This document shows positions 34,063-34,781 of a DNA stretch of 38,964 nt, one piece after another (the first letter of the stretch is position 1; each line of letters starts with the position of its first letter). This stretch comes from an uncultured Gammaproteobacteria bacterium. GTDB taxonomy: Bacteria; Patescibacteriota; Patescibacteriia; UBA2591; UBA6264. The notes under the pieces were generated by a model. The model had not been told where the DNA came from, searched no databases, and saw nothing but the letters and a program-made list of their open reading frames with translations. The position numbers were made by a program, and so were the translations under genes. The stretch covers positions 1 through 38,964 of the forward strand of contig CAZGUY010000005.1 of the NCBI GenBank assembly GCA_964528795.1. The letters are read 5' to 3'.

Positions 34063-34150
34063 GAGACCTGGGGGTCGTTCCTCCCGGGAAGTGCTTAGAT
34101 TGGAGGTCTTTCCTCCCGAAGGGAGGTGAGACCTCCTCAAATCTCTCTAA
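34063..34150 (+). repeat. GC-rich palindromic element, copy D (in the rpoC 3' UTR)
   Basis: GACCTGGGGGTC, TTCCTCCCGGGAA, then the 37-nt core TGGAGGTCTTTCCTCCCGAAGGGAGGTGAGACCTCCT at 34101-34137. Confidence 0.9.
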
Positions 34151-34157
34151 AATATAT

Positions 34158-34197
34158 AAAAAAAGAGGATGACTATTGATTTAGTCATCCTTTTTGT
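34158..34197. terminator. bidirectional intrinsic terminator shared by rpoC (+) and the minus-strand ORF
   Basis: A7 run, AGGATGACT-attgattt-AGTCATCCT perfect 9-bp stem, T5 run. Confidence 0.8.
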
Positions 34198-34207
34198 TTA
34201 TATTAGT

Positions 34208-34633
34208 TTATCCAGGAGTAACATTTTCAAGGTCTTCTAGTGTTTCATAGAGTTGGACTAAGGTGGGAAGAGGAAATTTTTTCTGTTGAATACCAATAGC
34301 AGTAATAACAATTTTTTTAGTAGTGGGGTCTTGATAAATGCTGATATAGTTATCATTGCTCATAGGGACATAAACTTGCACTGCTAAATAAGGATTTAAT
34401 TTAATTTTAATAACTGGTTTGTCAGCTAAAGAGCCCCATTTAGTTAAGATGTATACGAGAAGAGCTTGAGCTGCTTTGAAAAAGTCAGTATTTATGTTTC
34501 TATAACGATGATTTATCATTGAACCGATTTTTACTATTATTTTTTTTCGAACTTGAAACTCTTCGCCAAGTTGAATTTTGTCCAAAATCTTTTCTTCATT
34601 GTCCCAAAGATTGTTATTATTAATTTTTAACAT
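34208..34633 (-). CDS. hypothetical cytoplasmic protein (141 aa), the only minus-strand gene in the window
   Basis: Strong SD AAAGGAGGAT 6 nt upstream of ATG, own promoter and terminator. No family recognised. Confidence 0.7.
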   Translation of the reverse strand: MLKINNNNLWDNEEKILDKIQLGEEFQVRKKIIVKIGSMINHRYRNINTDFFKAAQALLVYILTKWGSLADKPVIKIKLNPYLAVQVYVPMSNDNYISIYQDPTTKKIVITAIGIQQKKFPLPTLVQLYETLEDLENVTPG

Positions 34634-34683
34634 TTTTATCCTCCTTTTTTATTTTAAAGATTATTGTTTTCGAGATTAGTTTT

Positions 34684-34712
34684 AATATAGGAAAATTTTT
34701 TAATTTTGTCAA
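34684..34712 (-). promoter_or_regulatory. promoter of the minus-strand ORF (TTGACA-17-TATATT on the minus strand)
   Basis: Plus-strand TGTCAA at 34707-34712 and AATATA at 34684-34689. Confidence 0.5.
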
Positions 34713-34716
34713 GTTT

Positions 34717-34781
34717 TTAACCTCTTAAATTGCATGGAAATGGAGGTCTTTCCTCCCGAAGGGAGGTGAGACCTCCTATTT
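34717..34781 (+). repeat. GC-rich palindromic element, copy E1
   Basis: TTAACCTCT head fragment, TGCATGGAAA, then the identical 37-nt core at 34741-34777. Confidence 0.9.

What the first reader, a model, noticed from the sequence alone, without database searches (positions are those of the whole stretch)
34097..34781. 37-nt perfect direct repeat, exactly 640 bp apart, flanking the only minus-strand gene like a cassette
TGGAGGTCTTTCCTCCCGAAGGGAGGTGAGACCTCCT occurs identically at 34101-34137 and 34741-34777. Between the two copies lie only the bidirectional terminator, the 141-aa minus-strand ORF and its promoter.

Each copy is a nested palindrome: GGAGGTC-ttt-CCTCCC-gaa-GGGAGG-tga-GACCTCC. The sequences just outside the identical core differ between copies but stay complementary within each copy: AGATT...AATCT at 34097/34140 and AAAT...ATTT at 34738/34778. 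The hairpin or cruciform therefore appears to be what is maintained.

Direct repeats of a structured palindrome bounding a single inverted-orientation gene, inserted between rpoC and ftsK, is the geometry expected for a gene cassette or excisable module, or for a footprint of repeat-mediated insertion.
Basis: seen in the sequence. Interest (0 to 1): 0.7.

Follow-up and report, generated by a model that had tools for sequence, protein, structure and literature searches.

The report
Dispersed palindromic repeat, not a cassette
The two identical 37-base hairpin sequences are real, but they are copies of a small selfish palindromic repeat that has spread through the spacers of this ultra-small (Patescibacteria) bacterium's genome, not the boundaries of a movable gene cassette.

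Summary
An exact 37-mer occurs at 34101-34137 and 34741-34777, none is expected by chance, and it folds as a strong nested hairpin.

The cassette reading does not hold.
- The window (a 30.7% GC Patescibacteria contig) carries G+C-rich palindromes built from the same 15-nt unit (GGMGGT-NNN-ACCKCC) in six intergenic regions. These include a third, slightly diverged copy of the 37-mer at 21453-21487.
- In a related lineage (FtsK 81% identical), homologues of the 141-aa gene sit at the same locus, divergent from the 211-aa-gene homologue and ftsK, and no such element is present. Alignment shows the 37-mer and its neighbours as lineage-specific insertions between conserved promoters and terminators.
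- A second relative (RpoC 79%) has a plain terminator after rpoC, but carries a near-identical element elsewhere, in the opposite orientation.
- Copy 2 lies between two divergent -35 boxes and is probably untranscribed.
- Related double palindromes occur in at least 120 metagenome contigs. Nine host proteins were looked up; six carry a source name, and all six name a CPR lineage. Many copies are inserted in frame in essential genes.

Best reading: a REP/REPIN-like, RPE-like miniature palindromic element. I found no description of it in CPR. The mechanism of spread is inferred, not shown.

The parts
34101..34137 (+). Copy 1 of the 37-nt double palindrome. It lies in the rpoC 3' untranslated region, between the rpoC stop (34057) and the bidirectional terminator.
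   Evidence: Exact match. Hairpin of -30.2 kcal/mol as RNA and -15.2 as DNA.
34741..34777 (+). Copy 2 of the 37-nt double palindrome. It lies in the spacer between the two divergent -35 boxes (34712 minus strand, 34866 plus strand).
   Evidence: Exact match. Promoter scan. Appears as an insertion of about 46 nt relative to L128. Independent Logan contigs L132 and L133 start with its last 30 nt.
21453..21487 (+). Third, diverged copy of the same element (TGGAGGTCTTTCCTCCTTCGGAGGTGAGTCCTCCA). It lies between the LPG-synthase-TM gene and a 189-aa ORF.
   Evidence: Folds as the same nested hairpin.
34062..34096 (+). Degenerate G+C-rich palindrome directly upstream of copy 1 (GACCTGGGGGTCGTTCCTCCCGGGAAG).
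   Evidence: In isolation it folds no better than shuffled sequence.
34811..34835 (+). Degenerate single-unit relative (GGTCCTCCTTTGGAGGTGCGACCTC), 34 nt downstream of copy 2.
   Evidence: Lies inside a second insertion of about 58 nt relative to L128.
35637..35780 (+). Large cluster of nested palindromes made of the same units (GGGAGGTCTGATCTCC, GGAGGTTTGATCTCC, GGGAGGTCAAACCTCCC). It lies between the terminator of the 211-aa gene and the ftsK promoter.
   Evidence: Fold of -67.8 kcal/mol, z = -7.1. Absent from the orthologous spacer of L128, which is 102 nt against 350 nt here.
22083..22145 (+). GGCGG-type double palindrome (GGCGGTCAGACCGCC-TTAC-GGCGGTTTGACCGCC) plus a GGAGGTGAGTTCTC remnant. 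It lies between the 189-aa ORF and alaS.
   Evidence: Fold of -37.8 kcal/mol, z = -7.2.
2920..2980 (+). The GGTTAACCTCTAGGGTTCACC module plus a single GGCGGTTAGACCGCC hairpin, upstream of tuf.
   Evidence: Repeat family D14..
34208..34633 (-). The 141-aa gene of unknown function: a resident gene, not part of the repeat.
   Evidence: Four homologues. Present as a tandem pair at the same locus in L128, without repeats. AlphaFold2 pLDDT 87.6 with no fold match. No Pfam, PHROG or PADLOC family.
34162..34195 (.). Bidirectional intrinsic terminator serving rpoC and the 141-aa gene. Its sequence is conserved in relatives.
   Evidence: Nearly identical in L129, and carries a compensatory change in L130.

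Best explanation
The two 37-mers are two copies of a miniature, non-coding, G+C-rich palindromic repeat. The repeat has multiplied in the intergenic DNA of this Patescibacteria lineage.

**Architecture.** Each copy is a doublet of two 15-nt units (GGAGGT-N4-CCTCC) in inverted orientation around a loop of 3-5 nt. It can therefore form one 15-17-bp hairpin, or two small hairpins, on either strand. This is the REPIN layout (two inverted REPs) in miniature.

**The unit that is copied.** It is the roughly 35-37-nt palindrome itself. Identity between the two copies ends exactly at 37 nt, including a T.T mismatch at the base of the stem.

**The 141-aa gene.** It is an ordinary resident gene whose two spacers each received a copy. 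The perfect identity and the 640-bp distance suggest that one copy was recently templated from the other, or that both come from a young, uniform sub-family.

**Inferred, not shown.**
- The element probably spreads as a DNA hairpin on single-stranded DNA. This could be by a trans-acting hairpin-specific enzyme (as RAYT does for REPINs) or by template switching at stalled forks.
- Where a copy is transcribed (rpoC 3' UTR, intercistronic sites) the hairpin probably acts like a REP, as a barrier to 3' exonucleases.
For: **A dispersed family within the window.**
- Six of about ten sizeable intergenic regions carry palindromes made of the same unit, at 55% G+C or more in a 30.7% G+C contig.
- There are three copies of the 37-mer type.

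**Empty sites in relatives.** L128 (FtsK 81% identical, 211-aa homologue 44%) has the same gene order: ftsK, the 216-aa gene, a divergent promoter region, then homologues of the 141-aa gene. It has none of the elements.
- The divergent spacer aligns on both promoters. The window has extra blocks of about 46 nt and about 58 nt that hold the 37-mer and the 34811 hairpin.
- The spacer between the 211-aa gene and ftsK is 350 nt in the window and 102 nt in L128.
- L130 shows only A+T-rich DNA in the 26 nt beyond the conserved terminator, where the window has the 37-mer.
- L001 (RpoC 79%) has a plain terminator after rpoC.

**Mobility.** The L001 genome has a near-identical element (one base pair shorter in the inner stem) at an unrelated locus, in the opposite orientation relative to the flanking genes (L127).

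**No consistent RNA context.** Copy 2 lies between two divergent 11/12-match promoters.

**A wider family.**
It hit 1 of 2.9 million viral contigs.
- Nine host proteins were found in the look-up. Six of the nine clusters carry a source name, and all six name a CPR lineage.
- 82 of 138 copies lie inside long ORFs whose frame continues through them.
- PDB alignments show them as inserts of 10-15 aa in Tgt and AtpA. The window's own sub-type occurs in AtpG.
- The arms covary.

**Not an assembly artefact.** Two independent Logan assemblies are 100% identical to the window and break at the repeat.
Against: - Only 39 kb of this genome is available, so the genome-wide copy number is unknown.
- No insertion polymorphism within a species was seen, and no target-site duplication could be defined.
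- No trans-acting enzyme was identified. There was no RAYT/IS200-like hit in about 0.99 Mb of held loci, but the probe was a sequence recalled from memory.
- The search pattern forced 22 of the roughly 35 positions, so part of the family resemblance is built in.
- A second small lineage-specific gene (189 aa, 21513-22082) is also bracketed by element clusters and is absent from L001. Some link between these elements and gene-sized indels is therefore not excluded.
- Absence from L128 could in principle reflect loss rather than gain.
Confidence: 0.8

Rival explanations
1. **Gene cassette or excisable module.** The two direct 37-mers would be recombination sites, attC-like or IS200-like ends, that move or excise the 640-bp unit carrying the 141-aa gene.
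For: - Direct repeats of a hairpin bracket a single gene of opposite orientation.
- The unit is 677 bp with a 141-aa ORF, which resembles IS200 in size (my own knowledge).
- A second small gene (21513-22082) is also bracketed by related clusters and is missing in L001.
Against: - Homologues of the gene sit at the same locus in L128 with no repeats.
- The protein has no HUH/Y1 or recombinase signature, no Pfam hit and no structural match.
- The family has only 4 homologues and is not dispersed.
- No integrase was found among the 15 window ORFs scanned; the ribosomal-protein cluster ORFs were not scanned.
- The 37-mer has no GTTRRRY core.
- Single copies occur elsewhere.
Confidence: 0.04
2. **Selected regulatory RNA structure.** The hairpins would be functional transcript elements: a 3'-end stabiliser, a processing site, a U-tract-less terminator, or a structure that sequesters the SD-like GGAGGTGA. 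They would be kept by selection at each site rather than being selfish DNA.
For: - Copy 1 and the copies at 21453, 22088 and 35637 lie right after stop codons, inside transcribed 3' or intercistronic regions.
- The folds are very stable.
- The arms covary.
- REPs have such proposed roles (PMC3733652; bioRxiv 10.64898/2026.03.23.713779).
Against: - Copy 2 lies between divergent promoters.
- The L127 copy is inverted relative to transcription.
- Relatives with the same genes and the same conserved terminators lack the elements.
- No U-tract follows, and the terminator scan does not pick them up.
- There is no Rfam family.
- Related copies sit in frame in coding DNA.

This reading is compatible with a secondary, REP-like effect of a selfish element.
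Confidence: 0.1
3. **Purely local origin.** One 37-mer would have been copied to the other site 640 bp away by a single replication template switch or gene-conversion event. The other palindromes would have grown in place by fold-back copying. Nothing would truly transpose.
For: - The two nearby copies are perfectly identical, while the distant copy at 21453 differs.
- Flanks that differ between copies yet extend each stem occur in 36% of non-coding copies, with an extension of 3 bp or more, against about 2% by chance.
- Some copies cap perfect stems of 9-19 bp.
Against: - Near-identical arms recur at unrelated loci, in different genes and in different CPR lineages. This needs copying over long distances or between genomes.
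- Several identical copies occur on single contigs, for example L054.
Confidence: 0.05
4. **Assembly artefact.** The 603 nt between the repeats would have been wrongly threaded through a repeated k-mer.
For: A 37-nt exact repeat is a branch point in k=31 graphs, and the Logan contigs break there.
Against: - The order terminator, 141-aa family gene, divergent promoter, 211-aa gene, ftsK is the same in L128/L130, which have no repeat.
- A 37-nt repeat is shorter than a read.
Confidence: 0.01

Closest known systems
REP / BIME / REPIN elements of Proteobacteria, mobilised by RAYT
   Same: - Palindromes of 20-40 nt, richer in G+C than their surroundings.
- Extragenic, often just after stop codons, clustered, and in either orientation.
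- The doublet of two inverted units forming one long hairpin is the REPIN layout (PMC3337134, PMC2817692).
- Present or absent at orthologous sites in relatives.
   Different: - No GTAG or CGTC tag at the end (PMC3733652).
- The doublet is only 35-37 nt, against roughly 70-110 nt for a REPIN (my own knowledge).
- No RAYT gene was seen.
- The host is Patescibacteria.
- Relatives of the element are frequent inside coding sequence, which REPs are not.
Rickettsia palindromic elements (RPE)
   Same: Selfish palindromic repeats found both between genes and in frame inside conserved protein genes, where they add a short peptide (my own knowledge of Ogata et al. 2000). The same is seen here for the wider family.
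   Different: - RPEs are about 100-150 nt, against about 35 nt here.
- There is no sequence relationship.
- The three copies in this window are all intergenic.
G+C clusters and double-hairpin elements of A+T-rich fungal mitochondrial genomes
   Same: Short G+C-rich palindromes in a very A+T-rich genome, able to form one or two hairpins, in spacers and occasionally in genes, and variable between strains (my own knowledge; compare PMC7218506).
   Different: They are organellar and their sequences are unrelated. This is an analogy only.
IS200/IS605 family
   Same: Hairpins in direct orientation near both ends, about 700 bp overall, and one ORF of about 140-150 aa.
   Different: - The ORF is not a Y1/HUH transposase.
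- The unit is not repeated.
- The gene is syntenic in a relative without hairpins.
Integron cassette with attC
   Same: A structured, imperfect palindrome next to a promoterless-looking small gene.
   Different: - There are two sites rather than one per cassette.
- No R'/R'' core.
- The gene has its own promoter and terminator.
- No IntI and no array.

Membership tests
Integron gene cassette (attC) | attC with R''-L''/L'-R' arms and a GTTRRRY core | tested here: not met
   The 37-mer and its flanks contain no GTTRRRY or RYYYAAC.
Integron gene cassette (attC) | IntI tyrosine recombinase and attI nearby, with cassettes in a co-oriented array | tested here: not met
   No integrase domain in the 15 ORFs scanned. 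The remaining ORFs belong to the ribosomal-protein cluster and were not scanned. The gene has its own promoter and terminator.
IS200/IS605 | Encoded Y1 HUH transposase (PF01797) | tested here: not met
   No Pfam hit at E <= 0.01. No H-x-H motif in the sequence. No PDB fold or sequence match.
IS200/IS605 | The whole unit present in several copies or at different loci | tested here: not met
   Four homologues only. The one homologue on a contig long enough to show its context (L128) is at the same locus.
REP / REPIN | Short (20-40 nt) imperfect palindrome, extragenic and repeated | tested here: met
   The genome-wide copy number (usually above 100) cannot be tested on 39 kb.
REP / REPIN | GTAG or CGTC tetranucleotide at one end | tested here: not met
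   The element starts TGGA and ends TCCT. Criterion from PMC3733652.
REP / REPIN | A cognate RAYT gene in the genome | not testable with these tools
   None in the window. A rough tblastn probe of 0.99 Mb of held loci was negative. The complete genome is not available.
Rickettsia palindromic element-like (in-frame selfish palindrome) | Copies inserted in frame in conserved protein genes | tested here: met
   Met for the wider family, but not for the three copies in the window, which are intergenic.
Intrinsic terminator | G+C-rich hairpin followed by a U-tract | tested here: not met
   The copies are followed by CAAATCTC and ATTTGGTG. The terminator scan does not list them, although it finds the true terminators.
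CRISPR array | Several regularly spaced repeats with short spacers, and cas genes | tested here: not met
   Two copies, with a 603-nt interval that holds a gene. No cas domains.
Known RNA family (Rfam) | A match at the gathering score | tested here: not met
   No hits at gathering score. Only generic hairpin hits far below threshold.

The most novel reading that the evidence does not exclude
The 37-mer would belong to a previously undescribed superfamily of ultra-short palindromic mobile elements specific to Patescibacteria (CPR).
- The elements are about 35 nt long and have no stop codon in any frame.
- They colonise spacers and also insert in frame into essential genes (Tgt, AtpA, AtpG, TsaD, TopA, MnmA, tRNA synthetases), adding peptides of 10-15 aa such as GGSTS..EVEPP.
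- They may spread without a dedicated transposase, by hairpin-templated copying.
- This window would catch a lineage in which the family is currently expanding.
Probability: 0.35. Interest if true: 0.7.

Novelty: new variant of a known kind. Interest (0 to 1): 0.5.

Why it matters
For this locus the result is deflationary: there is no cassette.

The family behind the repeat is of wider interest.
- CPR genomes are regarded as streamlined and poor in repeats. Here a selfish palindrome fills most sizeable spacers of one lineage, while the compared spacers of two relatives at about 80% protein identity (rpoC-ftsK interval in L128/L130 and L001; LPG synthase-alaS junction in L001) lack it. That implies fast turnover.
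- Related copies sit in frame inside essential, highly conserved proteins in at least six named CPR lineages. This affects protein annotation, alignments and phylogenomics. It also offers a natural experiment on where proteins tolerate insertions, as RPEs did for Rickettsia.
- Exact palindromic repeats of 31 nt or more break short-read assemblies (seen), which is relevant to the quality of CPR genome bins.

Tried and rejected
**RNA and repeat scans.**
- Rfam at gathering and E-value thresholds gave no family.
- The tRNA/tmRNA scan found none.

**The 141-aa protein.**
- The word-indexed search found only the protein itself. Full HMMER found 4 homologues. A profile search added nothing.
- Pfam, PHROGs, PADLOC and PDB sequence searches gave nothing credible.
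- The AlphaFold2 model is confident, but there is no PDB or BFVD fold match with a TM-score above 0.45.

**Look-ups.**
- Exact look-ups of the 141-aa protein and of RpoC were not on record.
- A size variant in the MnmA cluster (352 against 368 aa) looked like a possible presence/absence polymorphism. It is only an N-terminal truncation.

**Scans and probes.**
- The specific pattern in genome contigs gave a single hit, in the sister genome bin.
- The viral-contig scan gave one hit.
- A tblastn probe with an IS200 TnpA sequence recalled from memory was negative.

**Literature.**
- Searches for the DNA strings, the peptides and CPR palindromic elements found nothing relevant.

**Considered and dropped.** CRISPR, integron attC, IS200, intrinsic terminator, misassembly.
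Full report
**1. The observation**

The 37-mer TGGAGGTCTTTCCTCCCGAAGGGAGGTGAGACCTCCT is present exactly twice, at 34101-34137 and 34741-34777, both on the + strand and 640 bp apart. No other match appears at up to 3 mismatches, and none in 100 shuffles. Identity ends exactly at the 37th base on both sides.

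Three features lie between the copies:
- the bidirectional terminator (34162-34195);
- the 141-aa ORF (34208-34633, minus strand);
- its promoter (TTGACA-17-TATATT, 34712-34684).

Each copy folds into one nested hairpin.
- As RNA: -30.2 and -34.6 kcal/mol, z = -4.3 and -5.8.
- As DNA: about -15 kcal/mol.

The differing flanks (AGATT/AATCT and AAAT/ATTT) extend the stem.

**2. The context**

The window is a 30.7% G+C contig. It runs comEC, ndk, tuf, the S10-spc-alpha ribosomal cluster, alaS, scpAB, murligase, rpoB, rpoC, [141 aa, minus strand], [211 aa], ftsK, HTH_25. The closest RpoC in 5.8 billion proteins is 79% identical and is named Patescibacteria group bacterium.

The 37-mer is not alone. 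Scanning for local G+C spikes and for the unit GGNGG-N5-CCNCC shows palindromes of the same build in six intergenic regions:
- 2920-2980
- 21396-21497
- 22083-22145
- 34058-34147
- 34741-34835
- 35637-35780

The region 21396-21497 contains a third copy of the 37-mer type at 21453-21487, TGGAGGTCTTTCCTCC-TTC-GGAGGTGAGTCCTCCA. It differs by the loop, by one base pair less in the inner stem, and by one A>T change.

All of these are arrays of a 15-nt unit, GG[A/C]GGT-NNN-ACC[G/T]CC. The 37-mer is two such units in inverted orientation around a short loop. Only about ten intergenic gaps in the window exceed 60 nt, and six of them are occupied. A gene with a sizeable spacer on each side is therefore likely to be bracketed by elements without any cassette logic.

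**3. Comparison with relatives**

*(a) L128.* L128 is a 3.9-kb metagenome contig encoding an FtsK 81% identical to the window's and a homologue of the 211-aa protein (44%).
- Divergent from that gene sit two tandem homologues of the 141-aa protein, P0124 and P0123. This is the same locus and orientation as in the window.
- There is no G+C-rich palindrome anywhere.
- A gap-tolerant alignment of the divergent promoter region anchors on both promoters, both 5' leaders and both Shine-Dalgarno sites. It leaves two window-specific blocks, of about 46 nt and about 58 nt. These hold the 37-mer copy 2 and the hairpin at 34811-34835.
- The spacer between the 211-aa gene and ftsK is 350 nt in the window and 102 nt in L128. 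The terminator and the ftsK promoter are conserved, and the whole 35637-35780 cluster is extra.

*(b) L129 and L130.* The terminator of the 141-aa gene is almost identical in L129, and carries a compensatory change in L130. In L130 the 26 nt beyond it are pure A+T, where the window has the 37-mer copy 1.

*(c) L001-L006.* In the RpoC-79% relative, rpoC is followed by a plain terminator. Other genes (206 aa, amylase, methyltransferase) lie before ftsK, and no intergenic G+C spikes occur.

*(d) L127.* A genome-collection scan for the specific pattern found one hit, in another contig of that same relative's genome bin. The element is AGGAGGTCTTTCCTCC-GAA-GGAGGTGAGACCTCCT. It lies in an unrelated intergenic region, inverted relative to the flanking genes, and is followed by further units.

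Together these show that the gene is resident and the palindromes come and go independently of it.

**4. Is the pair real?**

Two independent Logan assemblies (SRR12088346 and SRR12088347) contain contigs 100% identical to 34748-37687. The contigs begin with the last 30 nt of the 37-mer. This is what a k=31 graph does at an exact repeat. The gene order around the repeat matches L128/L130, so misassembly is unlikely.

**5. RNA element or DNA element?**

- Copy 1 is in the rpoC 3' UTR.
- Copy 2 lies between the two best promoter matches of the region (11/12 each), which fire away from it.
- The L127 copy is inverted relative to transcription.
- None is followed by a U-tract, and the terminator scan finds the true terminators but not the 37-mers.
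- Rfam has no matching family.

A single RNA function does not fit all copies. A DNA-level selfish repeat does, possibly with REP-like side effects on transcripts where it is transcribed.

**6. The wider family**

It hit only one of 2.9 million viral contigs.

In the hits, the three central arm positions that the pattern left free are complementary between arms and covary across sub-families. There are 25 double changes against 7.4 +/- 2.3 in shuffles (0 of 500 reach this). The signal is lost when the partners are slid. One caveat applies: ten of the fifteen pairs were fixed by the pattern, and the 20 sequences were hand-picked.

Of ten host proteins looked up, nine were in the collection. Six of the nine clusters carry a source name, and all six are CPR: Patescibacteria, Zambryskibacteria, Parcubacteria, Falkowbacteria, Moranbacteria and Paceibacterota.

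Unexpectedly, 82 of 138 copies lie inside stop-to-stop ORFs of 600 nt or more that continue in the same frame on both sides.
- All three frames are used: GGSTS..EVEPP, EVRPP..RSNL and RRFDL..GGRTS.
- Alignment to solved structures shows a 15-residue insert in tRNA-guanine transglycosylase and a 10-residue insert in ATP synthase alpha, exactly at the element.
- The window's own asymmetric sub-type occurs in ATP synthase gamma, in a region with a gap of about 9 residues.

Frame preservation argues that these copies are translated rather than bypassed.

Non-coding copies often have flanks that extend the stem. The extension is 3 bp or more in 36% of them, against about 2% by chance, and some cap perfect stems of 9-19 bp. 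This fits either insertion at the centres of existing palindromes or later perfection of the palindrome by template switching. I cannot tell which.

**7. The 141-aa protein**

- It is a real, rare family with four homologues among 1.84 billion representatives.
- It is arranged as a tandem pair in L128 and in L129/L131.
- The AlphaFold2 model is confident (pLDDT 87.6).
- It has no fold, Pfam, PHROG or PADLOC match.
- It has no HUH, recombinase or nuclease signature, and nothing links it to the repeat.

**8. Mechanism**

*Shown:*
- the palindromic architecture;
- dispersal in the window;
- absence at orthologous sites in relatives;
- presence elsewhere in a relative, in the other orientation;
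- in-frame copies in CPR genes.

*Inferred:* the roughly 35-37-nt hairpin is the mobile unit, and it is copied through a single-strand hairpin intermediate. This could be by a trans-acting enzyme (as RAYT does for REPINs; PMC3337134, PMC2817692) or by template switching at forks stalled by the hairpin. Template switching would also explain a perfect second copy only 640 bp away. No enzyme was found: a rough probe of 0.99 Mb was negative.

**9. Comparison with known kinds**

The element works like a REP/REPIN and, in its coding copies, like a Rickettsia palindromic element.

It fails the REP tag test, having neither GTAG nor CGTC (PMC3733652). It is far shorter than RPEs or REPINs. Its RAYT status cannot be tested. 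Integron attC, IS200/IS605, CRISPR and intrinsic-terminator memberships were each tested and not met (see the membership table).

Literature searches for the sequences, the peptides and CPR palindromic elements returned nothing relevant. This suggests, but does not prove, that the family is undescribed.

**10. Verdict**

The cassette interpretation is not supported, but the claim that the hairpin is what is maintained is supported.

The finding is an ordinary kind of thing, a dispersed palindromic repeat, in an unusual host and format. The in-frame relatives in essential CPR genes are the most interesting lead.

One residual oddity remains. A second lineage-specific small gene (189 aa, 21513-22082) is also bracketed by element clusters, whereas in L001 the neighbouring genes are fused with nothing between them. 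A looser association between these palindromes and indel hot spots is therefore worth testing.

Noticed in passing
L019:2301-2335; L091:564-597 and 2680-2713; L014:2401-2434; L015:6477-6510; L038:2675-2708; L043:2629-2662; L054 (four copies): Related 33-35-nt GGAGGT..CCTCC double palindromes are inserted in frame in conserved CPR proteins: Tgt, AtpA, AtpG, TsaD, transketolase, MnmA, TopA and a tRNA synthetase. They add 10-15 residues (GGSTS..EVEPP, EVRPP..RSNL, RRFDL..GGRTS), and all three frames are used.
   Followed up: partly
window 21513-22082, with 21396-21497 and 22083-22145: A 189-aa ORF with an internal 146-nt duplication (21670-21815 and 21838-21983) is bracketed by palindrome clusters. 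In the relative L001 the LPG-synthase-TM gene runs directly, in frame, into alaS, with no gene or spacer there.
   Followed up: partly
window 2920-2965, 21396-21441, 35637-35682: A second repeated module, GGTTAACCTYWAGGGTTCACC followed by a GGCGG-type hairpin, occurs three times (63-80% identity). Each copy is downstream of a gene and at the 5' edge of a palindrome cluster. It has no Rfam match.
   Followed up: no
window 34162-34195; L129:905-950; L130:525-560: The terminator of the 141-aa gene is almost identical at DNA level between the window and L129, although the proteins are only 54% identical. L130 carries a compensatory T>C/A>G change in the stem. The terminator is more conserved than the gene.
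   Followed up: partly
L128:3053-3896; L129:33-892; L131: In relatives the 141-aa family occurs as a tandem pair of diverged paralogues, whereas the window has only the second type. The model is confident and has no known fold. The short contigs L129 and L131 start at nearly the same base in the 5' leader.
   Followed up: partly
L076:4560-4720; L084; L109:270-430: In several contigs the palindrome caps a longer stem inside a conserved sequence, AGCGGAACCAAGGGCAGTCCTTAAGGAG...CTGCCCTTGGTGGAGCGG. In L076 this lies next to a tRNA. It may be an unknown structured RNA that tolerates the element in a terminal loop. It has no Rfam family.
   Followed up: partly
window 35610-35632 and 35839-35863: Two similar terminator hairpins flank the large palindrome cluster, where L128 has a single terminator. 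They may be a diverged duplication created on insertion.
   Followed up: no
window 2827-3493: A 667-nt gap upstream of tuf has no tRNA gene and only a 62-aa membrane-like ORF (3044-3232).
   Followed up: no
window-wide, for example 6671-6808, 9491-9572, 38861-38964: Many proteins, including ribosomal proteins, RpoC and FtsK, carry lysine-rich tails or inserts. These give the A-rich repeat families D1-D6.
   Followed up: no
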